Below, in pieces: positions 10,187-33,403 of a stretch of DNA of 38,146 bases (position 1 is its first letter; the number at the start of each line of letters is the position of its first letter). Position numbers and translations under genes: made by a program. The notes beneath the pieces were generated by a model that saw only the letters and a list, made by a program, of their open reading frames with translations, made no database searches and was not told the origin of the DNA. Origin of the DNA: a virus (lineage: Duplodnaviria > Heunggongvirae > Uroviricota > Caudoviricetes). Where the stretch lies: the IMG/VR virus record IMGVR_UViG_2695420714_000020; one strand, given 5' to 3'.

Positions 10187-10840
10187 TCATTTCGATGATT
10201 GATCCAGATGTGTATATAACCATTGAAAGAGTTTTCTAATTTTTGTGATAGTATCTTTTAAATAATTTAAGGAGATTATTATATTATTTTCATTGTTTAA
10301 TGAAAGAGTAGGTGTTTTATCAATGATATTTTTTAAGGCTACAGCTGTGCTCATTTTTTTAATGTCTCCATTAGCATGAACTATGCAATTCCTTACTTTG
10401 TTAAACTCTGTCATGAATTGCCACTCTTGTGACAGGCCAAAGTTTATATCCATTAATTTTGTTAAATATCTTTTTGCTTTGTGGATGCCATCACCATTAA
10501 AATCGGTTACTGATATATTGGTGTTTACAATCCTTTGACATATATTGCAATAGTCGTTTAGGTTGTGCTCTAAGCATGAGTATAAAGATACCAAAGCAGA
10601 TTTATTAAAAATATTTGGTTGTATGTTAACTAAGAAATCATATTGCTCTGAATAATAGTCTTCTAAGTAATTAATATAATCGTCAGGAGCATTCTTTTTT
10701 TCATCTTCATATGCTTTTTTTAATTCCGCTAAGTTAACTCTGTTTTGGCCGCCTGCTCCTAGGATATATTTTTCGAAATCATCAATCTGCGCTTCAAGTG
10801 AATATCTTGATAGCTGTGCGAAAAGTTTGTATTTACTCAT
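10187..10840 (-). CDS. Accessory protein, 217 aa, with candidate HEPN motif (RNCIVH)
   Basis: AT-rich ORF convergent with 9071..9937. Residues 150-155 RNCIVH match the R-x4-6-H HEPN signature in its common RNxxxH form. Confidence 0.55.
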   Translation of the reverse strand: MSKYKLFAQLSRYSLEAQIDDFEKYILGAGGQNRVNLAELKKAYEDEKKNAPDDYINYLEDYYSEQYDFLVNIQPNIFNKSALVSLYSCLEHNLNDYCNICQRIVNTNISVTDFNGDGIHKAKRYLTKLMDINFGLSQEWQFMTEFNKVRNCIVHANGDIKKMSTAVALKNIIDKTPTLSLNNENNIIISLNYLKDTITKIRKLFQWLYTHLDQSSK

Positions 10841-11270: not shown

Positions 11271-12920
11271 ATGTTAGTCAAGAAAAATAAAAATTATAGT
11301 TTATATTTTTTAATTACAAATAATCAACAGATATCTGATTCTGGTAATTATATAAAAATAGTCCCATCAAGAAGCGATTGGAATGATTTTGGATATTTGA
11401 GTAGAGTCGAAATATCTATTTTTAATAAAAAAGAGTGTAAGGATATAATTTCACTGAATGGTTATATTGGTTTTTTGAATTCAGAGGAGGAACGAAATGG
11501 AAAAGCAGAACTGATAAGGCGAGTGAAGAAAAAGGAAGAATCTAATTTAAAGGATGAGGGGTTTAATGATTATTTTGTCATGCTTCAGGATATGAATAAT
11601 TATCGAAGACTAGTAAGATTTTTTGGGGTGAATGAATCCAAATATATATTAAATTTCATTAATGATGTTGTTTCTAAGAAAAGTGACGCTAGTGCAGAGA
11701 ATTTGAGGAAAAAAGCAATCTCTTCTGATATCTTTAATAAATCTTTCATTAGAGAGTCTGAGTCGTATTTTACTTTCAAAAATGCAGGAACAGTTCTTTC
11801 CGGTATTCAATATGAGGAGTTGGGTAATTTATCACAGCACATCAAGATTAGCTATTCGAATAAAGTTAATGAAGAAGATGTATCTTATGTTTTTAATTTT
11901 GATCACGAGCATGATTTACCAAAAAGAATTTCCATAATTATAGGCGAGAATGGTGTAGGAAAAAGCCAAACGCTTAGAGAAATCGCATTGGCTGCGATTA
12001 AAGGAAAGGATAATTTGGTGGCTGTAGTTGATTCTAACGGTGTGAGCATTGAAGAACGAATTCAAATTAGTAGGCTCATTGCTTTTTCTCCAACAAATGA
12101 AAGTAAGTGTTCATTTCCAACCGATAAAAGAATAAAATCATTGATATGGTACAAAAGATTGACTTTAAATCGTGAATCAAAATCCAAATTAAACTTGAAT
12201 GATTTAATAGTGCAACTAGCGAGGAGTAACGACGCTATCGGCTATAATCAAAGGTGGAATATATTTGTTGATGCACTGAGTGTTCTAAATAGTAACAACG
12301 ATTTAGTAATCAAATGTAGCGGTGAAAATTCACCATTTGTTAAATTAAATGAGCTTAATTCTCGAGGCGAAGAATCCAGACTATCATTATATTCTGAAAT
12401 TATTCTCTCTGGCGAGCCTTTGAGGCTTGTTGAAAATAAATGTTACCCTTTGAGTAGTGGGGAAATATCGTTTATTAAGTTTTGTGTACAAGTCTGTTTG
12501 TATATTGAGAATGGGACTCTTCTATTAATAGATGAGCCAGAAACACATCTCCATCCTTCATTTATTAATAAATTTATGGCATTGCTTGATAATTTATTAG
12601 AAAAGACAGGCTCTTCAGCTATCATAGCAACGCATTCGGTTTATCTTGTTCGGGAGGTTTTTAAGGAGCAAGTGACAATACTCAGAAGACGAGATGATGG
12701 GGTAATTGTTAGCGAAAAACCGAGATTGAGTACTTTTGGGGCGAATATAGGAAATATCTCATATTTTGTTTTCGGTGAGAGTGAACCAACTCAAATTTTA
12801 AATAAAGTAAAAAATAATATAATTGCAAAGAATATGTCTTGGGATGATGTTGAATCTAAATATAGCGAGGACTTATCACTTAATGTATTAACTGCGTTGA
12901 GAAATGAAATAGGTAATTGA
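11271..12920 (+). CDS. ABC-type ATPase with ~215-aa N-terminal extension (candidate defense ATPase, PtuA-like)
   Basis: 549 aa. Walker A GENGVGKS (aa 225-232), ABC signature LSSGE (394-398), Walker B LLLIDEPE (417-424), H-loop ATHS (453-456). N-terminal 215 aa have no recognisable motif. AT-rich. Confidence 0.7.
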   Translation: MLVKKNKNYSLYFLITNNQQISDSGNYIKIVPSRSDWNDFGYLSRVEISIFNKKECKDIISLNGYIGFLNSEEERNGKAELIRRVKKKEESNLKDEGFNDYFVMLQDMNNYRRLVRFFGVNESKYILNFINDVVSKKSDASAENLRKKAISSDIFNKSFIRESESYFTFKNAGTVLSGIQYEELGNLSQHIKISYSNKVNEEDVSYVFNFDHEHDLPKRISIIIGENGVGKSQTLREIALAAIKGKDNLVAVVDSNGVSIEERIQISRLIAFSPTNESKCSFPTDKRIKSLIWYKRLTLNRESKSKLNLNDLIVQLARSNDAIGYNQRWNIFVDALSVLNSNNDLVIKCSGENSPFVKLNELNSRGEESRLSLYSEIILSGEPLRLVENKCYPLSSGEISFIKFCVQVCLYIENGTLLLIDEPETHLHPSFINKFMALLDNLLEKTGSSAIIATHSVYLVREVFKEQVTILRRRDDGVIVSEKPRLSTFGANIGNISYFVFGESEPTQILNKVKNNIIAKNMSWDDVESKYSEDLSLNVLTALRNEIGN

Positions 12921-12921
12921 A

Positions 12922-13785
12922 ATGAATAAATTAAAAAGACCTGTTTTTAAAGATTATTCTGCATTTAAAAAACTATCTGCAAATAAGAGATTAAAACATC
13001 ATTCTGTTCTGAATGGACAGGATACATTTATACTTAATGCATATAGATCGTACATAAAGAATAAAGGATATCTTAATGTCAATTCTTGTGGCGTATTGAG
13101 TAACAATATTGCTGAAGCTTTGAAATATTATTATAACAATCCCGCAAAGTGTTTATCTATAATTGATGATATAAGAGCAGCTAATTCTAACTCTCTATGT
13201 CCAATGTGTGGTTCAATGCATAGCGGGACTTTGGATCATGTTTTACCCAAGGAAAACTATCCAGAATTTTCTTTATTCACTAAGAATTTGGTTCCTGCTT
13301 GCAAATGTAATACTTTCAAAAGTACTACTATAGCTAATTCTGCAGGCCATCGGATGCTGCATCCATATTTTGATAATATATTAAAACAAAGATTAATATG
13401 TGCTAATTTTTCTAAATTAGGGCGAACACCTACAATTGATGTAAAAATCATAATTGACCCAATGTCACCAGAATATAACAATGTTAAGTATCATCTTGAT
13501 AATGTTGTTATCAAGAATAATATTAAGGGGTATTTGTCTGAACAATGGGAGTCGTTTTACTTATATCCTGAGCTTGTTATTAGAGGACTGAATAAGAGTC
13601 TTTCTACTTATAGCGATGTATATGAGTTGTTGACTCGCGAGTTGTTGCTGTTGGATGAAAAACATAAAGGTAAAAATAATTGGAATTCGGTTTTTGTAGC
13701 TGGGTTAATTCGACCTGATGTGATTAGGTGGATACTCTGTGAATTACATTTAGGTAACAGAAGTCCAGACGGTCGTCTCATATGA
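12922..13785 (+). CDS. HNH-motif nuclease (candidate effector, PtuB-like)
   Basis: 287 aa. CPMCGSMHSGTLDHVLPKENYPEFSLFTKNLVPACKCN (CxxC...DH...N...CxC, aa 93-130). ATG is 1 nt after the ATPase stop, so the two genes are coupled. Confidence 0.65.
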   Translation: MNKLKRPVFKDYSAFKKLSANKRLKHHSVLNGQDTFILNAYRSYIKNKGYLNVNSCGVLSNNIAEALKYYYNNPAKCLSIIDDIRAANSNSLCPMCGSMHSGTLDHVLPKENYPEFSLFTKNLVPACKCNTFKSTTIANSAGHRMLHPYFDNILKQRLICANFSKLGRTPTIDVKIIIDPMSPEYNNVKYHLDNVVIKNNIKGYLSEQWESFYLYPELVIRGLNKSLSTYSDVYELLTRELLLLDEKHKGKNNWNSVFVAGLIRPDVIRWILCELHLGNRSPDGRLI

Positions 13786-22651: not shown

Positions 22652-23221
22652 TTACGCACTTAATAAACTTAAATAACTTTTTATGCTTTGGCAAAAAGGG
22701 AAAAGGTCTATTTTAATTTTCCAGTTTTTTTTGTTTTGAACCCCAGAAGCAATAATAGAACCATCCCAATATTTTATTCCATTTTTGCCGGTCTTTTTTG
22801 TTAACTCAAAACTTAATGCGTGAATAATTTTATTGCAGCATTCGCGTATAGAACCTTTAACATGACCATCTATAACAAAAAGTATATTTTCATGTTCTTC
22901 AAATGCTTCTTTCTCAGGTGAGTAATCTGGGTTCCACTCATGTTCACTAGTGTCTTGGAGAATTCGTAGTTTTGTACAAAGGCTAATAAGATTGTTGCTA
23001 ATGGTATATTCCAACCATCCGTTGTACGATAACTCCTCCATTTCAAATTCAGTTACTATAGAATCATCATATACTTTCTGTGTGGAATATATACGCTGTA
23101 AATAAAATTCAGATGAACAGCATAATTGCTCAATTATTCTTGCGTGTTCTTCTATAGCGTAATAATCAATTGGATGGCTCATTCTTTTACCTTTCTTCGA
23201 TTGGAATTGTATTTGTGTCAT
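22652..23221 (-). CDS. Moron: orphan 189-aa protein on the opposite strand between gpS and gpV
   Basis: AT-rich ORF antiparallel to the late operon, filling the S-V junction that is contiguous in P2. Start codon sits inside the PV activator dyad; no motif recognised. Confidence 0.55.
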   Translation of the reverse strand: MTQIQFQSKKGKRMSHPIDYYAIEEHARIIEQLCCSSEFYLQRIYSTQKVYDDSIVTEFEMEELSYNGWLEYTISNNLISLCTKLRILQDTSEHEWNPDYSPEKEAFEEHENILFVIDGHVKGSIRECCNKIIHALSFELTKKTGKNGIKYWDGSIIASGVQNKKNWKIKIDLFPFCQSIKSYLSLLSA

Positions 23222-24212: not shown

Positions 24213-25107
24213 CCTTTCGCAGTTGCCTGCGCCGCAGATTGTGGATGTGCCGGACTTTGAGACGCTGCTTGCCGAACGCAAGGCCGGATTTGTTGCGCTT
24301 CATCCGAAAGATGAGCAGGAAGCAGTGATCCGCACGCTGGAACTGGAATCTGAACCCGTCACCAAATTGCTGCAGGAGAACGCTTACCGTGAGTTGCTTC
24401 TGCGCCAGCGCATTAACGAAGCCGCGCAGGCTGTGATGGTGGCTTACGCGATGGGCAGCGATCTTGACCAGCTCGCTGCCAACTACAACGTGAAACGCCT
24501 GACGGTGACGCCTGCTGATAATGACGCTGTGCCGCCCGTTGCAGCTGTGATGGAAAGCGATGAAGCGTTACGCCTGCGTGTGCCTGCAGCCTTTGAAGGG
24601 CTTTCAGTTGCGGGGCCAACTGCAGCTTATGAATTTCATGCCCGAAGCGCCGACGGTCGGGTGGCGGATGCCAGTGCAACCAGCTCGGCACCTGCAGAGG
24701 TGGTGCTGACTGTCCTTAGCCGCGAAGGCGATGGAACTGCAGAAAAAGACCTGCTGGACGTGGTGGAAAAAGCTCTGAACAGTGAGAACGTCCGCCCGGT
24801 GGCTGACCGTCTTACGGTTCGCAGCGCAGAAATCATCCCGTATCGCGTGGAAGCCACCATTTTTCTCTATCCTGGACCGGAAGCAGAGCCGGTAATGGCA
24901 GCGGCAAAAGCCAGCCTGCAGAAGTACATCGCCAGTCAGACGCGTCTTGGTCTGGATATTCGCCGTAGCGCCATCTTTGCCGCCCTGCATGTTGAGGGTG
25001 TGCAGCGTGTGGAGCTGGCTTCTCCTCTGGAGGATGTGGTCCTGAACAAAACACAGGCGGCATCATGTACGCAGTGGAGCGTAACCAACGGAGGAACGGA
25101 TGAATAG
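24199..25107 (+). CDS. J: Baseplate protein gpJ
   Basis: Start MAVIDLSQLP at ATG 24199; about 302 aa as in P2 J. Confidence 0.85.
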   Translation: MAVIDLSQLPAPQIVDVPDFETLLAERKAGFVALHPKDEQEAVIRTLELESEPVTKLLQENAYRELLLRQRINEAAQAVMVAYAMGSDLDQLAANYNVKRLTVTPADNDAVPPVAAVMESDEALRLRVPAAFEGLSVAGPTAAYEFHARSADGRVADASATSSAPAEVVLTVLSREGDGTAEKDLLDVVEKALNSENVRPVADRLTVRSAEIIPYRVEATIFLYPGPEAEPVMAAAKASLQKYIASQTRLGLDIRRSAIFAALHVEGVQRVELASPLEDVVLNKTQAASCTQWSVTNGGTDE

Positions 25108-25705
25108 TCTGCTGCCACCGGGTTCAACACCACTGGAGCGCCGACTGGCGCAAACCTGCAGCGGGATTTCTGATCTGCAGGTGCCGCTTCGTGACTTGTG
25201 GAATCCGGCAACCTGTCCGGTCAGTTTCCTGCCTTATCTCGCCTGGGCGTTCTCTGTAGATCGCTGGGACGAGGGCTGGACAGAAAGCGTCAAGCGCCAG
25301 GTGGTGAAGGATGCTTTTTATATTCATCAGCATAAAGGGACCACCAGTGCCGTGCGGCGGGTGGTGGAGCCGTTCGGCTTTCTGATCCGCATTATTGAGT
25401 GGTGGCAGACCGGAGAGGCACCGGGCACGTTTCGCCTGGATATCGGCGTGCAGGACCAGGGTATCACTGAAGATACCTATCTGGAACTTGAGCGACTGAT
25501 AAGCGATGCCAAACCATGTAGCCGCCACATGATCGGCATATCCATCAATCTGCAGACCAGCGGCCCGCATTGGGTGGGAGCCGCCAGCTATCTTGGCGAA
25601 GAAATCACGATCTATCCGTATATCAACGAAACGATTATTTCCGGTGGCACCGCGCATGAAGGCGGGGCGGTCCATGTTATTGACACAATGAGAGTGAATC
25701 CATGA
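25100..25705 (+). CDS. I: Baseplate protein gpI
   Basis: 201 aa; position between J and H. Confidence 0.8.
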   Translation: MNSLLPPGSTPLERRLAQTCSGISDLQVPLRDLWNPATCPVSFLPYLAWAFSVDRWDEGWTESVKRQVVKDAFYIHQHKGTTSAVRRVVEPFGFLIRIIEWWQTGEAPGTFRLDIGVQDQGITEDTYLELERLISDAKPCSRHMIGISINLQTSGPHWVGAASYLGEEITIYPYINETIISGGTAHEGGAVHVIDTMRVNP

Positions 25706-27621
25706 GCACAAAATTTTATACCCTGCTGACGGATATTGGCGCGGCGAAACTTGCCAGCGCCACCGCGCTCGGTGTGCCGCTAAAAATTACCCATATGGCG
25801 GTGGGCGATGGCGGCGGAGTATTGCCAACGCCGGACGCAAAGCAGACGGCACTGGTAAATGAGAAACGCCGGGCTGCGCTGAATATGCTTTATATCGACC
25901 CGCAGAACAGCAGCCAGATTATTGCTGAACAGGTGATCCCTGAAAACGAGGGCGGTTGGTGGATACGTGAAGTGGGCTTGTTTGATGAGTCCGGGGCATT
26001 GATTGCCGTGGGTAACTGCCCGGAAAGCTATAAGCCGCAACTGGCTGAAGGCAGTGGGCGTACCCAGACCGTGCGCATGGTGCTGATTACCAGCAGTACG
26101 GACAATATCATCCTGAAAATCGACCCTGCTGTAGTGCTGGCAACCCGCAAGTATGTGGATGACAAAATATCAGAGCACGAACAGTCACGACGTCACCCGG
26201 ACGCCTCGCTGACCGCAAAAGGTTTTACTCAGTTAAGCAGTGCGACCAACAGTGAATCCGAAATACTGGCCGCAACACCGAAGGCTGTGAAGGCTGCATA
26301 TGATCTTGCAGCAGGTAAAGCATCCGCCAGTCACACGCACCCGTGGAGCCAGATAACAGATGTGCCTGCAGCTTCACTGACGGTAAAAGGCACCGTGCAA
26401 CTCAGCAGCGCTACTAACAGCACGTCAGAAACGCAGGCTGCCACACCAAAAGCCGTGAAGGCTGCATATGATCTTGCAGCAGGTAAAGCATCCGCCAGTC
26501 ACACACACCCGTGGAATCAGATAACGGATGTGCCTGCAGCTTCACTGACGGTAAAAGGCACCGTGCAACTCAGCAGCGCCACTAACAGCACGTCAGAAAT
26601 GCAGGCTGCCACACCAAAGGCAGTGAAGGCGGCATATGACCTTGCAGCAGGTAAGGCACCTGTCAGTCACACGCACCCGTGGAGCCAGATAACAGATGTG
26701 CCTGCAGCTTCACTGACGGTAAAAGGCACCGTGCAACTCAGCAGCGCTACTAACAGCACGTCAGAAACGCAGGCTGCCACACCAAAAGCCGTGAAGGCTG
26801 TATATGACCTTGCCAATGGAAAACAACCTGCCGACGCCACACTGACCGCACTGGCAGGCCTTGCCACTGCGGCAGACAAACTTCCGTATTTTACGGGGAA
26901 TGATACAGCCAGCCTGACAACCCTGACTAACGTTGGACGGAATATTCTGGATAAAGCAAGCACACAGGCGGTTATTCAATATCTTGGTCTGAGCGATGCA
27001 AGTGGATACGTTGGACGCTGGCTGAATACCCGGGTTTTCACCTCATCAGGTACGTACACCACGACGCCAGGAACAAAACGGATTAGGGTCACAATAACGG
27101 GCGGCGGTGGCGGAGGGGGCGGCTGCAAGGCTATATCCAATAATGAAACGTTTTTCGGTGCTGGCGGCGGGGCAGGTGGGACAGTAATCACCACGCTGAT
27201 CCTGACGAAGGATAGTTATCCTGTCACTATCGGCGCAGGTGGGGCCGGCGGCGTTAGTGCGACGAACGGCCTCAAGGGCGGTGATAGCTCGTTCGGATCG
27301 GTAATAGCCCCTGGTGGTGAAGGTGGTGGAAAATCAGGAGTCACAAACACGAACGGTGGTAACGGCGGTGTGCCAAGTACTGGCGGTATCAACATCATTG
27401 GTGGAAATGGAGGCGACGGTCAGTCCGGAAATATCGGCGTCAGCGGTGAAGGCGGAACATCGCACTGGGGTGGCGGTGGACGCGCAGGCGCTGGCGGTGG
27501 TGTTAGTGGTAAGGCATATGGTTCAGGTGGCGGTGGCGCATACGATGCCGGTTATAGCGGAACCAGTATGACAGGCGGGAAAGGTGCCGCTGGGATTTGT
27601 ATTATCGAGGAGTTTGCATAA
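25702..27621 (+). CDS. H: Tail fiber protein gpH with tandem repeats and glycine-rich C-terminal domain
   Basis: N-terminus MSTKFYTLLTDIGAAKLA...MAVGDGGG matches P2 H. Central 56-aa repeats (SSATNS...ATPKAVKAAYDLAAGK...SHTHPW). C-terminal ~180 aa are Gly-rich (GGGGGGGGC...GGNGG...). Confidence 0.9.
   Translation: MSTKFYTLLTDIGAAKLASATALGVPLKITHMAVGDGGGVLPTPDAKQTALVNEKRRAALNMLYIDPQNSSQIIAEQVIPENEGGWWIREVGLFDESGALIAVGNCPESYKPQLAEGSGRTQTVRMVLITSSTDNIILKIDPAVVLATRKYVDDKISEHEQSRRHPDASLTAKGFTQLSSATNSESEILAATPKAVKAAYDLAAGKASASHTHPWSQITDVPAASLTVKGTVQLSSATNSTSETQAATPKAVKAAYDLAAGKASASHTHPWNQITDVPAASLTVKGTVQLSSATNSTSEMQAATPKAVKAAYDLAAGKAPVSHTHPWSQITDVPAASLTVKGTVQLSSATNSTSETQAATPKAVKAVYDLANGKQPADATLTALAGLATAADKLPYFTGNDTASLTTLTNVGRNILDKASTQAVIQYLGLSDASGYVGRWLNTRVFTSSGTYTTTPGTKRIRVTITGGGGGGGGCKAISNNETFFGAGGGAGGTVITTLILTKDSYPVTIGAGGAGGVSATNGLKGGDSSFGSVIAPGGEGGGKSGVTNTNGGNGGVPSTGGINIIGGNGGDGQSGNIGVSGEGGTSHWGGGGRAGAGGGVSGKAYGSGGGGAYDAGYSGTSMTGGKGAAGICIIEEFA
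26212..26825 (+). repeat. Tandem 168-bp (56-codon) repeats inside the tail fiber gene, about 3.6 copies
   Basis: Unit starts at 26212, 26380, 26548 and 26716 with near-identical nucleotide sequence (for example GCTGCCACACCAAAAGCCGTGAAGGCTGCATATGA); the fourth copy diverges after about 36 codons. Confidence 0.85.
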
Positions 27622-28034
27622 TGAATGCGTCATATGCAGTTATTGAAAATGGGATGGTTGTGAATGTCATTGTCTGGGATGGCGAGGCTGAATTCACAGT
27701 GCCGGATAATCAGCAGCTCATTAATATTTCTGATATCAGTGAGCAGCCCGGAATCGGCTGGGTTTATTCAGACGGGGGATTTACTGCACCACCCACCCAG
27801 GAACGTTCTCATGATGAACTGGTAGCTGACGCTGAACAGAAAAAACAGTCGCTGTTAGACGCAGCAATGGCCAATATCAGCGTGATTCAGTTAAAGCTGC
27901 AGGCCGGGCGCAAACTGACGCAAGAGGAAACTACTCGACTTAACGTTGTGCTGGATTATATCGAGGCTGTGACGGCAACAGATACCAGCACCGCACCTGA
28001 TATTATTTGGCCTGTTTTCCCTGCAAGCAGATAA
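27621..28034 (+). CDS. G: Tail fiber assembly chaperone (gpG/Tfa-like)
   Basis: ATG overlaps the H stop (TAATG); C-terminal TDTSTAPDIIWPVFP matches the conserved Tfa C-terminal motif. Confidence 0.8.
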   Translation: MNASYAVIENGMVVNVIVWDGEAEFTVPDNQQLINISDISEQPGIGWVYSDGGFTAPPTQERSHDELVADAEQKKQSLLDAAMANISVIQLKLQAGRKLTQEETTRLNVVLDYIEAVTATDTSTAPDIIWPVFPASR

Positions 28035-28046
28035 ATACCGTCATTT

Positions 28047-28064
28047 TGTGTGAATAACGGTACA
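28047..28064. promoter_or_regulatory. Late-promoter activator dyad TGT-N12-ACA upstream of the sheath gene (PF)
   Basis: TGTGTGAATAACGGTACA, closely similar to the 16737 dyad (shared TGTGTG...CGGTACA). Confidence 0.5.
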
Positions 28065-28140
28065 ACTGCGCTTAGCTGCTTGTCAGACACAATCACTTCA
28101 ACATAGGGCGAAGCCTAATCCAATCAGGAGGTTCGCCACT

Positions 28141-29313
28141 ATGGCTCAGGATTACCACCACGGAGTGCGCGTTGTTGAAGTCAACGAAGGCACTCGATCC
28201 ATTACCACGGTGAGCACCGCCATCGTGGGCATGGTCTGCACGGGCGATGATGCCGATGCAAAAATGTTCCCTCTTAATAAACCCGTGCTGATCACTGATG
28301 TGCTTACTGCCAGCGGTAAGGCGGGTGAATCCGGTACGCTGGCCCGTTCGCTGGATGCCATCGCTGACCAGGCAAAACCCGTGACCGTTGTTGTGCGTGT
28401 GCCGCAGGGTGAAACGGAAGAAGAAACCACGACCAATATCATCGGCGCAGTGACTGCTGAAGGTAAAAAAACTGGTATGAAAGCCCTGTTATCTGCCCAG
28501 TCACAGCTCGGTGTTAAACCGCGCATTCTCGGCGTGCCGGGGCACGATAATAAAGCCGTTGCTACTGAGTTGCTGGGCGTGGCGCAAAGCCTGCGTGGGT
28601 TTGCTTACCTGTCAGCGTATGGCTGCAAGACGGTGCAGGAGGCGATCACTTACCGTAAAAACTTCAGTCAGCGTGAAGGGATGCTGATTTGGCCTGACTT
28701 TACTGGCTGGGACACGGTGCTGAATGCCGACGCAACGGCATATGCCACCGCCCGTGCGCTTGGTCTGCGTGCCAAAATTGATGAGCAGACAGGGTGGCAC
28801 AAAAGCCTGTCCAACGTGGGCGTGAACGGTGTCACCGGAATTTCTGCTGATGTGTTCTGGGATCTGCAGGACCCGGCAACTGATGCGGGACTACTTAACC
28901 AGAACGATGTTACCACACTTATCCGCAAAGACGGCTTTCGCTTCTGGGGTTCCCGCTGCCTGAGTGATGACCCACTCTTTGCCTTCGAAAACTACACCCG
29001 CACGGCGCAGGTGCTGATGGACACGATGGCAGAAGCGCCAATGTGGGCGGTCGACAAACCGCTGAATCCGTCGCTGGCCCGCGACATTATCGAAGGTATC
29101 CGCGCCAAAATGCGCAGCCTGATCAGTCAGGGCTATCTCATTGGTGGCGATTGCTGGCTGGATGAGTCGGTGAACGACAAAGACACTCTGAAAGCTGGAA
29201 AACTCACCATCGACTACGACTACACACCAGTGCCGCCACTTGAAAACCTGATGCTGCGTCAGCGCATCACCGATCAGTACCTGGTGAATTTCTCCAGCCA
29301 GGTCAGCGCGTAA
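28141..29313 (+). CDS. FI: Tail sheath protein gpFI
   Basis: 390 aa; N-terminus [31 protein letters not shown] matches P2 FI. Confidence 0.92.
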
Positions 29314-30321: not shown

Positions 30322-33300
30322 ATGAGTGATAATAACCTGCGCCTGCAGGTCATTCTTAATGCGGTTGACAAACTCACCCGCCCATTCCGTGCTGCACAGG
30401 CCAGTTCGAAAGAGCTGGCTGGCGCAATCAGAAACTCCCGTGACGCATTAAAGCAACTCAATCAGGCGGGTAACAGCTTGGAAAAATTTCGCAAGCTGCA
30501 GGCCGATAACAAGAAGTTAGGCGACAGGCTGAACTATGCCAGACAGAAGGCAAATTTGCTTAGTTCTGAGCTGGAAGCGATGGAACAACCATCACAACGG
30601 CACCTTGTGGCTTTAGGTCGGCAAACGCTGGCAGTCCAACGCCTGGAAGAACAACAAAAATATTTGCAGAAGCAAACGGCGCTTGTGCGTGCAGAACTGT
30701 ACCGGACGGGAATTTCTGCGAAAGATGATGCGGGAGCAACTGCCCGTTTAGCCCGTGAAACATCACGTTATAACCAGGAATTGTCGAAACAGGAGGCGCG
30801 GCTGAAGCGACTGGGTGAAGCTCAGCGCAGGATGAATGCGGCGCGTGCCAGTTATGCCCGTTCGCTGGAGGTGCGCGATCGTATTGCAGGAGCCGGAGCC
30901 ACTACCACGGCTGCAGGGCTGGCAATGGGGACGCCAGTGATGGCGGCAGTAAAAAGCTATACCAGCATGGAAGATGCCATGAAAGGTGTGGCAAAGCAGG
31001 TCAATGGTCTGCGTGACGATAATGGAAACCGTACTGCACGTTTTTATGAAATGCAGGATGCCATCAAGGCTGCCAGCGAACAGTTGCCGATGGAAAACGG
31101 TGCGGTGGACTTCGCTGCACTGGTTGAAGGTGGTGCGCGCATGAACGTCGCAGACCCTGACGACAGCTGGGAAGACCAGAAACGTGACCTGCTGGCCTTC
31201 GCCAGTACGGCAGCAAAGGCGGCAACAGCCTTTGAGCTGCCAGCGGATGAACTGTCAGAAAGTCTGGGGAAAATCGCCCAGCTCTACAAAATACCTACCC
31301 GCAATATTGAACAGCTCGGCGATGCGCTGAACTATCTGGATGATAACGCCATGTCGAAAGGGGCGGACATCATTGATGTGATGCAACGTCTGGGCGGTGT
31401 GGCTGACCGTCTGGATTATAGTAAAGCGGCGGCACTGGGTTCCACCTTTCTGACACTGGGCGCTGCGCCGGAGGTTGCAGCCAGTGCAGCAAACGCGATG
31501 GTGCGTGAATTGTCCATTGCCACCATGCAAAGCAAGAGTTTCTTTGAAGGGATGAATCTGCTGAAACTCAATCCTGAAGTGATTGAAAAGCAGATGACGA
31601 AGGATGCGATGGGAACTATCCAGCGTGTGCTGGAGAAGGTGAACGCACTGCCGCAGGACAAGCGTCTGTCTGCCATGACCATGTTGTTTGGTAAAGAGTT
31701 TGGCGATGACGCGGCGAAACTGGCAAACAACCTGCCGGAACTACAGCGCCAGCTAAAACTGACAGCGGGCAATGATGCGCTCGGTTCCATGCAGAAAGAA
31801 TCCGACATCAACAAGGACTCACTTTCTGCTCAGTGGTTGCTGGTTAAAACCGGAGCGCAGAATACCTTCAGCAGCCTGGGAGAAACGCTGTGCCAGCCGC
31901 TGATGGATATTCTGTACACGGTGAAAAGCGTTACGGGAGCGTTGCGTCGCTGGGTGGAAGCTAACCCGGAACTGACGGGCACACTGATGAAAGTAGCCGC
32001 TATTGTGGCTGCGGTTACCGTAGGCCTCGGCACCTTGGCTGTGGCGCTGGCTGCAGTGCTGGGGCCGCTGGCAGTCATCCGTCTGGGATTCTCTGTGCTG
32101 GGCATCAAAACGTTACCTTCCATTACGGCAGCAGTAACACGAACTAGCAGCGCGTTGTCCTGGCTGGCTGGCTGGCGCTCCACTGGCAGTGCTGCGACGC
32201 GGGCTTGCTTCATCGGGTAACGCAGCGGGTTTACTTACTGCGCCGTTGTCGTCTTTGCGCCGTACGGCATCACTGACGGGAAATGTCCTGAAAACTGTAG
32301 CAGGTGCGCCGGTTGCACTATTGCGGTCTGGATTATCCGCTTTACATGCTGTTGCTGTGATGTTTATGAATCCTCTGGCGGTACTGCGCGGTGGACTGGC
32401 TGCCGTAGGCGCGGTGCTTCGTGTGCTTGCATCTGGTCCGCTGGCGATGCTGCGCGTTGCCCTGTATGCCATATCTGGTCTGTTAGGTGCTCTGCTCAGT
32501 CCGATAGGTCTTGTGGTTACTGCACTGGCGGGCGTGGCGCTGGTTGTCTGGAAATACTGGCAACCCATCACCGCATTTCTCGGTGGCGTGGTGGAAGGAT
32601 TCAAAGCGGCGGCAGGTCCCATCAGTGCTGCATTCGAACCACTTAAGCCTGTGTTTCAGTGGATTGGCGACAAAGTACAGGCGCTGTGGGGCTGGTTTAC
32701 TGATCTGCTGACGCCCGTTAAGTCGACCTCTGCCGAACTGCAGAGTGCAGCGGCAATGGGGCGGCGATTCGGGGAGGCACTGGCGGAAGGGCTGAATATG
32801 GTCATGCATCCGCTGGACTCCCTGAAATCCGGCGTTTCCTGGTTGCTGGAGAAGCTCGGCATTGTCAGTAAAGAGGCCGCAAAGGCAAAACTGCCGGAAA
32901 GCGTGACGCGTCAGCAACCTGCGACGGTGAATGCAGACGGTAAAGTGATGATGCCATCGGGTGGTTTTCCATCATGGGGATATGGCTTTGCGGGGATGTA
33001 TGACAGCGGCGGGTATATCCCGCGCGGGCAGTTTGGCATCGTCGGTGAAAACGGGCCGGAAATTGTTAACGGCCCGGCAAATGTGACCAGCCGGAGAAAT
33101 ACAGCTGCACTGGCTGCCGTTGTTGCCGGAATGATGGGCGTTGCTGCCGCGCCTGCAGAGCTTCCACCGTTGCATCCTTTGGCACTTCCCGCGAAAGGCG
33201 GCGAAGCGATGGTGAGTCGTGCAGCCACTGTGCCGCCCGTTCACCGGATTGAGGCACCGACGCAGATCATCATTCAGACGCAGCTAGGACAAAGTGCGCA

Positions 33301-33403
33301 GGATATTGCGCGGGAGGTGGCACGCCAGCTTGATGAACGTGAACGCAGGCTGAAGGCAAAAGCCAGGAGTAACTACAGCGATCAGGGGGGATACGACGCA
33401 TGA
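30322..33403 (+). CDS. T: Tail tape measure protein gpT, reading frame interrupted (two ORFs: 30322..32220 and 32189..33403)
   Basis: Ala/Leu-rich tape-measure-like sequence split across frames 1 and 2 with an 83-bp overlap; the (TGGC)4 tract at 32161..32176 lies in the overlap. Position between E' and U. Confidence 0.8.
32161..32176 (+). repeat. (TGGC)4 tetranucleotide repeat at the tape measure frameshift point
   Basis: Removing one TGGC unit joins the two ORFs into a continuous reading ...SALSWLAGAPLAVLRRGLASS... Confidence 0.8.

What the first reader, a model, noticed from the sequence alone, without database searches (positions are those of the whole stretch)
25702..27621. Tail fiber with near-identical 168-bp tandem repeats and a glycine-rich C-terminal domain
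The H-like fiber has a P2-like N-terminus, then about 3.6 tandem copies of a 56-codon unit that are nearly identical at nucleotide level (a substrate for recombinational length change). The final ~180 residues are Gly-rich (runs such as GGGGGGGGC, GGNGGDGQSGN), unlike the P2 H distal domain as I recall it. The distal domain sets host range, so this is likely a swapped receptor-binding module.
Basis: seen in the sequence. Interest (0 to 1): 0.45.

Follow-up and report, generated by a model that had tools for sequence, protein, structure and literature searches.

The report
Mosaic P2-type prophage tail fibre
This is an ordinary tail-fibre gene of a P2-like E. coli prophage, built from a P2-type base, a shaft of repeats whose number varies between strains, and a glycine-rich tip of a known, widely exchanged kind that travels with its own assembly chaperone.

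Summary
Window 25702-27621 (+) is one 639-aa ORF in the gene H position of a P2-like E. coli prophage. It has a P2-type N-terminal domain and four Phage_fiber_2 repeats spaced 56 codons apart. The last 180 residues are 36% glycine. "Near-identical" is overstated: adjacent full units are 80% and 92% identical. Exact tracts of 53 and 137 bp do exist.

Otherwise closely related fibres in complete E. coli genomes carry 4, 3 or 2 repeats, with gene lengths differing by exact multiples of 168 bp. The tip has no similarity to the P2 H tip. The tip and most of the next gene, a tail-fibre assembly chaperone, are 97% identical in DNA to a module in Mu-like-tail prophages.

None of this is new. The tip is Pfam Gly_rich_2. 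It is homologous to the solved cyanophage Pam3 fibre gp24 (profile E=1e-25; predicted fold TM 0.71). It occurs in 270 of 5426 complete E. coli genomes. A three-repeat version with a tip differing at two residues is the fibre of prophage DuoHS in E. coli HS. A 2026 preprint reports that DuoHS needs O9 O-antigen. The near-identical strain Z1323HEC0108 has an O35-type locus, so the receptor here is unsettled. Interest is low.

The parts
25702..27621 (+). Tail fibre gene in the P2 gene H position, 639 aa, stop TAA at 27619-27621
   Evidence: ORF list. Pfam finds Phage_tail_fib, four Phage_fiber_2 stretches and Gly_rich_2. PHROG 6202 'tail fiber protein' scores 3e-262. RefSeq annotates the identical sequence as tail fiber protein WP_052924747.1, between phage tail protein I and a tail fiber assembly protein.
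25702..26151 (+). N-terminal baseplate-attachment domain, aa 1-150, P2 gpH type
   Evidence: Pfam PF12571 Phage_tail_fib, E=1.1e-63, covering profile positions 1-150 of 150. It aligns with the P2 gpH N-terminus. About 97% identical in DNA to many deposited P2-like Escherichia and Klebsiella phages over nt 1-464.
26206..26832 (+). Shaft array of four Phage_fiber_2 repeats at 56-codon (168-bp) spacing. Units start at aa 169, 225, 281 and 337, and the last is partial. The first three units carry HxH motifs at aa 211-213, 267-269 and 323-325.
   Evidence: Tandem Repeats Finder: 26268-26813, period 168, 3.2 copies, 92% matches. Unit identities are 80-92%. Exact tracts of 53 and 137 bp, and the offset-168 span 26234-26832. 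Copy-number variants of 4, 3 and 2 exist in relatives. Metal binding by the HxH motifs is inferred from PMC6116203, not tested.
26824..26982 (+). Conserved distal shaft segment (aa 375-427, QPADATLTALAGL...VIQ) shared with P2 gpH. It ends at the module junction.
   Evidence: It aligns with P2 gpH residues about 322-378 at high identity. In relatives, a 132-aa extra domain is inserted at this same junction, around window 26983-26988.
26983..27618 (+). Distal receptor-binding domain, aa 428-639: a TNF-like plus glycine-rich fold of the Pam3 gp24 class (Pfam Gly_rich_2)
   Evidence: PF21722 scores 52.9 bits against a cut-off of 24.3. A profile of 89 homologues hits Pam3 fibre 7YPX/7YFW at E=1e-25 over the whole domain. 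The AlphaFold2 model has pLDDT 94.5. The top Foldseek hits are Pam3 fibre (TM 0.71), then Bxb1 tail-tip proteins, then ALK/LTK glycine-rich domains.
27184..27408 (+). Region holding the three hypervariable segments of the distal domain: aa 495-504 (27184-27213), aa 522-535 (27265-27306) and aa 562-569 (27385-27408)
   Evidence: Column entropy over 96 distinct close homologues. Mean entropy is 0.085 in glycine columns and 0.295 in other columns, and the variable columns cluster in these segments. Their position in 3D was not mapped.
27621..28034 (+). Tail fibre assembly chaperone in the P2 gene G position, 137 aa. Its ATG overlaps the fibre stop codon (TAATG).
   Evidence: Pfam PF02413 Caudo_TAP 3.1e-21 and PHROG 188. 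The start was read from the sequence. 136 of 137 residues match the E. coli HS prophage chaperone and 123 of 137 match the Mu-like-tail prophage chaperone. Similarity to P2 gpG is only weak and C-terminal.
26983..28004 (+). Horizontally exchanged cassette: the distal domain plus most of the chaperone gene
   Evidence: 1022 bp at 97.0% identity to L003 6289-7310, a prophage with a Mu gp45-48 type baseplate. There is no similarity upstream of the junction.

Best explanation
This is the single tail fibre of a P2-like (Peduoviridae-type) E. coli prophage, assembled from three modules.

(i) Residues 1-150 form a P2 gpH-type domain that should dock the trimeric fibre to the baseplate next to gpI.

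(ii) The shaft has four Phage_fiber_2 repeats of 56 residues. Three of them carry an HxH motif that probably forms a six-histidine metal site on the trimer axis. The units share exact DNA tracts of 53-137 bp. Unequal homologous recombination therefore adds or removes whole 168-bp units, which keeps the reading frame and changes shaft length.

(iii) Residues 428-639 form a Pam3 gp24-type domain with a TNF-like beta-sandwich and a lattice of glycine-rich strands. The conserved glycine motifs would provide the scaffold and the variable segments between them would determine receptor specificity. The chaperone encoded immediately downstream would fold this domain.

Module (iii) and its chaperone move together between unrelated tail types, always joining at the conserved ...YLGL junction. 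That movement retargets the phage.

Shown here: the architecture, the homologies, the copy-number variation and the exchange. Inferred: trimerisation, metal binding, loop-mediated receptor binding and any effect of shaft length. The receptor is probably an LPS O-antigen, by analogy with DuoHS, which needs O9 polymannan. That is not established for this copy.
For: Gene order V-W-J-I-H-G-FI matches P2. Domain calls are above the Pfam cut-offs, and PHROG 6202 'tail fiber protein' scores 3e-262.

P2 gpH homology covers residues 1-438 only. Natural variants with 4, 3 and 2 repeats occur on several sequence backgrounds: the HS group at about 97.8% identity, strains 127 and FREC5 at 92.7%, and D3 and D5 at about 94%.

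The distal domain is homologous to the solved Pam3 fibre (E=1e-25). The model is confident and the top fold match is Pam3. In Pam3 the domain sits at the distal end of a trimeric fibre and is folded with a dedicated chaperone (PMC9608196).

The cassette is 97% identical in a Mu-like-tail prophage. It is present in 270 of 5426 complete genomes in several fibre contexts, and 76 of the 353 places are on plasmids. 6832 cluster representatives carry the domain, and it ends at the C-terminus in nearly all of the 150 listed.

Variation is concentrated between the glycine motifs. The DuoHS fibre is the 3-repeat variant, with two distal-domain substitutions. DuoHS needs O9 O-antigen for binding, killing and lysogeny (PMC13622650). 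HxH iron sites in trimeric fibres are described in PMC6116203.
Against: Nothing was tested on protein. Trimerisation, metal binding and receptor contacts are all inferred.

The model is a monomer, and part of the hypervariable sequence falls in predicted beta-strands, so it may not lie at the distal tip.

The O9 receptor inference is weakened. Strain Z1323HEC0108 differs from the window by only 3 substitutions and one 4-nt indel over 32,445 bp, and it carries an O35-family wzx/wzy O-antigen locus, not O9. It is the only fibre carrier among the six O35 genomes in the collection.

The window's tape-measure gene is split by a 4-nt repeat expansion, so this copy may not make functional tails. No effect of repeat number on function is known.
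Confidence: 0.8

Rival explanations
1. The tandem array is an assembly artefact: a repeat mis-expansion or collapse.
For: Repeats with a 168-bp period can be mis-assembled from short reads. One relative, CRE10, shows a 1922-bp match annotated as two genes, which suggests a sequencing frameshift.
Against: Of the 60 best-matching complete genomes, 35 from many laboratories show a 1920-bp match. The shorter variants differ by exact multiples of 168 bp and stay in frame. The units differ at 14-33 positions, so they can be told apart.
Confidence: 0.02
2. The glycine-rich C-terminus is not the receptor binder. It would be a folding aid (an intramolecular chaperone) or a structural cap removed after assembly, as in some fibres and tailspikes. 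Specificity would then lie elsewhere.
For: C-terminal intramolecular chaperone domains exist in other phage fibres (general knowledge, not tested here). No binding data exist for this protein.
Against: The Pam3 gp24 paper describes the domain as the distal, receptor-recognising end of the fibre, with the separate chaperone gp25 proposed to leave before virion maturation (PMC9608196). A separate Caudo_TAP chaperone is encoded here. Host-adaptation mutations in a Klebsiella phage fibre of the same class map to the glycine-rich domain (PMC12671077). Variation clusters in discrete segments.
Confidence: 0.06
3. Copy-number variation of the shaft repeats is a selectively neutral by-product of recombination and has no effect on host range or adsorption.
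For: Variants with 2, 3 and 4 copies all stay in frame with the same distal domain class. No correlation with host surface was found or tested.
Against: There is no direct evidence against it. DuoHS, the 3-copy variant, is blocked by capsule, which masks its receptor (PMC13622650). An effect of fibre reach is therefore conceivable.
Confidence: 0.45
4. The distal domain recognises a conserved LPS core or an outer-membrane protein and not a specific O-antigen. The O9 requirement of DuoHS would then be strain-specific.
For: The same distal domain is found in lysogens with different O-antigen loci: O35 in Z1323HEC0108, and O9 in HS and ECCTRSRTH03.
Against: [quoted passage not shown] O-antigen loci are exchanged often, so a lysogen's present serotype need not be the one that was infected (general knowledge).
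Confidence: 0.25

Closest known systems
Bacteriophage P2 gpH tail fibre with gpG chaperone (NC_001895)
   Same: Same gene position, V-W-J-I-H-G. Same N-terminal Phage_tail_fib domain, the same kind of Phage_fiber_2 repeat, and the same conserved shaft segment ending ...YLGL. Identity is 53% over residues 1-438.
   Different: P2 has two repeats at 44-aa spacing; this fibre has four at 56-aa spacing, and the extra 12 residues carry SHTHPW. The distal 200-280 residues are unrelated. The chaperone matches gpG only weakly, at its C-terminus.
Fibre of DuoHS, the inducible P2-like prophage of E. coli HS
   Same: About 97.8% DNA identity. The distal domain differs at two residues and the chaperone at one of 137. 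DuoHS forms virions and needs O9 O-antigen, with capsule masking that receptor.
   Different: DuoHS has three repeats and this fibre has four. The window's nearest sequenced host has an O35-type locus, not O9. The papers read here do not analyse the fibre itself.
Cyanophage Pam3 tail fibre gp24 with chaperone gp25 (PDB 7YFW, 7YPX)
   Same: The TNF-like plus glycine-rich distal domain is homologous: profile E=1e-25 over the whole domain, Foldseek TM 0.71, 30% identity. A dedicated chaperone is encoded next to the fibre gene.
   Different: Pam3 gp24 is a minimal 280-residue fibre with an alpha-helical N-terminal bundle. It has no Phage_fiber_2 shaft and no P2-type attachment domain.
308-aa fibre of E. 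coli prophages with a Mu-type baseplate, often mis-named 'carbohydrate kinase'
   Same: The distal domain is 97-98% identical in protein. With the chaperone, the cassette is 97.0% identical in DNA over 1022 bp.
   Different: It has an unrelated short N-terminus (MHRIDTKTAQKD...), no 56-aa repeats, and a different tail module (Mu gp45-48 type).
Salmonella phage S16 gp38 adhesin (PDB 6F45) and the ALK/LTK glycine-rich domains
   Same: The same design principle: a lattice of glycine-rich strands. In gp38 the variable loops bind the receptor (cited). ALK and LTK appear as weak fold matches.
   Different: gp38 is a separate tip protein. It was not among the top 50 of 103 Foldseek PDB matches here, and Pfam gave no gp38-family hit. 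The ALK/LTK matches are weak, with TM about 0.3.

Membership tests
P2 gpH-type tail fibre (Peduoviridae) | N-terminal tail-collar fibre domain (Pfam PF12571) | tested here: met
   E=1.1e-63, covering profile positions 1-150 of 150.
P2 gpH-type tail fibre (Peduoviridae) | Encoded between gpI and a tail fibre assembly gene, within a V-W-J-I-H-G operon followed by sheath and tube genes | tested here: met
   Tail_P2_I lies upstream and Caudo_TAP downstream. The RefSeq annotation of the near-identical locus gives the same order as P2.
P2 gpH-type tail fibre (Peduoviridae) | P2 H distal (receptor-binding) domain | tested here: not met
   No significant BLASTP similarity after residue 438. It is a P2-type fibre by its base and shaft only.
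Gly_rich_2 / Pam3 gp24-type TNF-like plus glycine-rich fibre tip | Match to Pfam PF21722 above the gathering score | tested here: met
   52.9 bits against a cut-off of 24.3, residues 447-636, profile positions 1-224 of 226.
Gly_rich_2 / Pam3 gp24-type TNF-like plus glycine-rich fibre tip | Sequence homology to the solved Pam3 gp24 across both sub-domains | tested here: met
   A profile of 89 homologues hits 7YPX and 7YFW at E=1.2e-25, chain residues 42-284.
Gly_rich_2 / Pam3 gp24-type TNF-like plus glycine-rich fibre tip | The same fold | tested here: met
   AlphaFold2 model with pLDDT 94.5 and pTM 0.90. The best PDB match is Pam3 fibre, E=1.4e-8, TM 0.71. This is a predicted monomer, not a solved structure.
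Gly_rich_2 / Pam3 gp24-type TNF-like plus glycine-rich fibre tip | Cognate chaperone encoded adjacent and needed for folding | tested here: inconclusive
   An adjacent Caudo_TAP gene is present and is co-transferred with the domain. Dependence on it cannot be tested with these tools.
Gly_rich_2 / Pam3 gp24-type TNF-like plus glycine-rich fibre tip | Trimeric fibre tip that binds the host receptor | not testable with these tools
   Only indirect support: clustered variability, the O9 dependence of DuoHS, and host-adaptation mutations in a related Klebsiella phage fibre.
T-even gp38-type polyglycine adhesin (S16 gp38) | Separate adhesin protein with the gp38 fold or family signature | tested here: not met
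   No gp38-family Pfam hit. 6F45 is absent from the top 50 Foldseek matches. The domain is fused to the fibre here.
Invertible (Mu G / P1 C / e14 P type) fibre-tip switch | Inverted repeats flanking alternative tip cassettes, with an invertase gene | tested here: not met
   No inverted repeats of 18 nt or more in 25000-29000. The sheath gene follows the chaperone directly.

The most novel reading that the evidence does not exclude
The number of 56-residue shaft repeats (2, 3 or 4 in nature) could act as a quickly adjustable reach setting. It would let the same glycine-rich tip get through capsule or O-antigen layers of different thickness. Unequal recombination between the 53-137-bp exact tracts would make this a high-frequency, reversible host-range variation within lysogen populations.
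Probability: 0.12. Interest if true: 0.45.

Novelty: new member of a known kind. Interest (0 to 1): 0.14.

Why it matters
It matters little beyond annotation. It is a clean, well-documented example of tail-fibre modularity. One receptor-binding tip and its chaperone are used by P2-type tails, Mu-type tails, StfP-annotated fibre genes and 80-94 kb plasmids in E. coli. The shaft length is naturally polymorphic.

There are three practical uses. The junction at ...YLGL (window about 26983) is a natural splice point for engineering P2-based particles. The many 308-aa proteins named 'carbohydrate kinase' should be renamed tail fibres. DuoHS offers an experimental system in which the receptor and the repeat-number questions could be tested.

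Tried and rejected
1. tblastn of the distal domain against deposited phages found only phage Goslar, probably because the low-complexity filter masks the glycine runs. A DNA search again found only Goslar carrying the whole cassette, at 66% identity. No deposited P2-like phage covers 80% or more of the gene.

2. A single-sequence search of solved structures matched only the Phage_fiber_2 repeat of Mu fibre S. A profile was needed to reach Pam3.

3. NCBIfam gave nothing useful.

4. A literature search for the Pfam name or accession found nothing.

5. I tested whether lysogens carrying this tip have O9 antigen. Among the 60 listed of 211 genomes carrying O9 wzm/wzt, 8 also carry the fibre, but 4 of those are assemblies of strain HS. 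The strain nearly identical to the window is O35. The test is inconclusive, because the search tool lists only 60 records and a full cross-tabulation was not possible.

6. An invertible-switch reading was rejected.

7. The assembly-artefact reading was rejected.

8. Mapping the hypervariable segments onto the 3D model was not possible, because the model coordinates are not exposed.
Full report
**1. What is there**

Window 25702-27621 (+) is a single 639-aa ORF. The surrounding window is a P2-like prophage. Over window 5702-38146 it differs from E. coli Z1323HEC0108 (NZ_CP148374.1) by only 3 substitutions and one 4-nt indel. That record is annotated with the P2 gene order: baseplate V, W, J, I, then tail fibre, fibre assembly protein, sheath, tube, tape measure, D and ogr. 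The host gene ybjL follows.

Pfam places three kinds of domain in the protein:
- Phage_tail_fib at residues 1-150 (E=1e-63).
- Four Phage_fiber_2 stretches.
- Gly_rich_2 (PF21722) at residues 447-636, scoring 52.9 bits against a cut-off of 24.3.

PHROG 6202 'tail fiber protein', a 636-position profile, scores 3e-262. The next gene is a Caudo_TAP chaperone at 27621-28034 (137 aa). Its ATG overlaps the fibre stop codon in TAATG.

**2. The repeats**

Tandem Repeats Finder reports 26268-26813, period 168, 3.2 copies, 92% matches and no indels. Similarity at an offset of 168 nt runs from 26234 to 26832, which is 3.57 units.

The identity is uneven. Unit 1 vs unit 2 is 91.7% identical and unit 0 vs unit 1 is 80.4%. 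The fourth unit matches only over roughly its first 100 nt. The pattern is mosaic. The second half of unit 0 is almost identical to the second half of unit 1. A 137-bp tract is exactly repeated at an offset of two units (26328-26464 = 26664-26800). The longest exact tract between adjacent units is 53 bp. From general knowledge, such tracts are long enough for homologous recombination in E. coli.

P2 gpH has only two such repeats, at 44-residue spacing. The extra 12 residues of the 56-residue unit carry SHTHPW. HxH motifs form six-histidine iron sites on the axis of other trimeric fibres and spikes (PMC6116203). The three motifs here (aa 211-213, 267-269, 323-325) are probably metal sites. This is inference only.

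**3. Copy number really varies**

Sixty-five of 5426 complete E. coli genomes hold a place covering at least 80% of the gene. The match lengths among the 60 listed are:

| Match length (bp) | Genomes | Notes |
|---|---|---|
| 1920 | 35 | 4 repeats in the window itself |
| 1922 | 1 | CRE10, annotated as two genes |
| 1752 | 7 | includes assemblies of strain HS |
| 1584 | 2 | D3 and D5 |
| 2316 | 4 | extra domain, see below |
| 1980 | 8 | extra domain, see below |
| 2076 | 3 | extra domain, see below |

Translating the window and one example of each other class shows 4, 3 and 2 repeats for 1920, 1752 and 1584 bp, with otherwise collinear sequence. The longer classes carry an additional 132-residue domain, inserted exactly at the shaft/tip junction. 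They combine it with 4, 2 or three P2-type 44-residue repeats.

The three-repeat form occurs on at least two sequence backgrounds, at about 97.8% and 92.7% identity to the window. Changes in unit number have therefore happened more than once.

**4. The distal domain**

BLASTP against P2 gpH aligns residues 1-438 (53% identity, E=6e-110) and finds nothing significant after ...YLGL. The last 180 residues are 36% glycine, against 5.6% in the first 426.

A scan of 1.84 billion cluster representatives found 6832 proteins with the domain at E<=0.001. In nearly all of the 150 listed it ends at the C-terminus, in proteins of roughly 100 to 1405 residues. A profile of 89 diverse homologues hits the solved tail fibre gp24 of cyanophage Pam3 (7YPX, 7YFW) at E=1e-25 across the whole domain.

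An AlphaFold2 model built with that alignment is confident (pLDDT 94.5, pTM 0.90). Its best PDB matches are the Pam3 fibre (TM 0.71), then mycobacteriophage Bxb1 tail-tip proteins, then weakly the glycine-rich domains of ALK and LTK.

In Pam3 the domain has a TNF-like beta-sandwich whose strands extend into a lattice of glycine-rich motifs. It forms the distal end of a trimeric fibre and is folded with a dedicated chaperone (PMC9608196).

Among 96 distinct close E. coli homologues the glycine columns are almost invariant (mean entropy 0.085, against 0.295 for other columns). Variation clusters in residues 495-504, 522-535 and 562-569. This fits a conserved scaffold with variable specificity segments. 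I could not map these segments in 3D, and some of them lie in predicted strands.

**5. The swap**

The distal 213 residues are 97-98% identical to the C-terminus of very common 308-aa E. coli proteins, often named 'carbohydrate kinase'. These sit after Mu gp45-48 type baseplate genes and before a 138-aa Caudo_TAP gene. They are therefore the fibre of a different tail type.

At DNA level, window 26983-28004 is 97.0% identical to that locus. Similarity starts exactly at the junction and runs almost to the end of the chaperone gene. The exchanged unit is thus the tip plus its chaperone.

The tip alone is present in 270 of 5426 complete genomes, at 353 places. Of these, 76 are on plasmids; those listed are 80-94 kb and annotated as carrying phage tail fibre genes. 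The chromosomal contexts listed include P2-type H genes and genes annotated StfP.

Among deposited phage genomes only the jumbo phage Goslar carries the whole cassette, at 66% identity. No deposited P2-like phage covers 80% or more of the gene. There are no inverted repeats around the gene, so there is no invertible switch.

**6. Function and receptor**

The E. coli HS prophage fibre (L007) is the three-repeat variant. Its distal domain differs from the window's at two residues, outside the variable segments, and its chaperone at one. HS has one complete P2-like prophage, DuoHS, which forms virions (10.64898/2026.05.19.726188).

A 2026 preprint reports that four of five DuoHS-resistant clones had mutations in the O9 polymannan locus (manB, manC, wzt). 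Deleting wzt made capsule-deficient mutants highly resistant to binding and killing, and abolished lysogeny. Capsule masks this receptor (PMC13622650). By analogy the window's fibre would bind O9 O-antigen.

O9 wzm/wzt occurs in 211 of 5426 genomes. Eight of the 60 listed also carry the fibre family, but four of those are assemblies of strain HS. Strain Z1323HEC0108, nearly identical to the window, has an O35-family wzx/wzy locus. It is the only fibre carrier among the six O35 genomes.

Either the receptor is not O9-specific or the O-antigen locus changed after lysogeny. This is unresolved, and I give the O9 reading no more than moderate weight.

**7. Comparison with what is known, and verdict**

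The base and shaft are P2 gpH-type, and the membership features are met except for the distal domain. The tip is a member of the Gly_rich_2 / Pam3 gp24 class by sequence, profile and predicted fold. It is not a gp38-type adhesin.

Mosaic fibres that exchange a tip with its chaperone at conserved junctions have long been described for P2 and related phages (general knowledge). The exact protein is already in RefSeq (WP_052924747.1), and a near-identical fibre belongs to an experimentally studied phage.

What remains open is whether repeat number affects reach through capsule or O-antigen, and what the tip binds.

Noticed in passing
window 32160-32175, within 30322-33403: The tape-measure gene is split into two ORFs (30322-32220 and 32189-33403). 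The cause is a (CTGG)4 run where the near-identical strain Z1323HEC0108 has (CTGG)3 and an intact 3078-nt gene. It is either a sequencing error or a frameshift that would make this prophage unable to build tails.
   Followed up: partly
window 11271-12920 and 12922-13785 (+): A 549-aa AAA ATPase and a 287-aa HNH endonuclease lie upstream of the portal gene. This corresponds to the position of old and tin in P2. Their best PADLOC matches are the candidate system PDC-M01 A and B (2.4e-55 and 8.2e-34), and also Septu PtuA (1e-31). This is a probable two-gene anti-phage system.
   Followed up: partly
L009 about 2288-2677; also L010 and L011: Related P2-type fibres carry an extra 132-residue domain (GCPASPTGWLKTGNNG...NTKNKPTTTD). 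It is inserted exactly at the shaft/tip junction, ahead of a glycine-rich tip of the same class. Its nature was not examined.
   Followed up: no
L003-L006, 6001-6927: Hundreds of E. coli records name a 308-aa protein 'carbohydrate kinase'. It is the tail fibre of a prophage with a Mu-type baseplate and carries the same glycine-rich tip. The name is an annotation error. An Acyl_transf_3 (acyltransferase family 3) gene lies just downstream.
   Followed up: partly
plasmid records, for example NZ_CP149546.1 28222-28860: The same tip sequence, at 87-96% identity, occurs at 76 places on plasmids. The plasmids listed are 80-94 kb and annotated with phage tail fibre genes. The tip also occurs in chromosomal genes annotated StfP.
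   Followed up: no
window 27621-28034 compared with L001 21953-22333: RefSeq starts the chaperone gene of Z1323HEC0108 33 nt downstream of the ATG that overlaps the fibre stop codon. The E. coli HS record uses the overlapping ATG. The longer form, 137 aa, is more likely correct.
   Followed up: partly
window 22652-23182 (-) and 10187-10840 (-): A 176-aa ORF on the opposite strand, between the tail-completion genes and baseplate gene V, sits at the P2 orf30 position and has no PADLOC match. A 217-aa ORF has only a weak HEPN-like match (1e-5).
   Followed up: no
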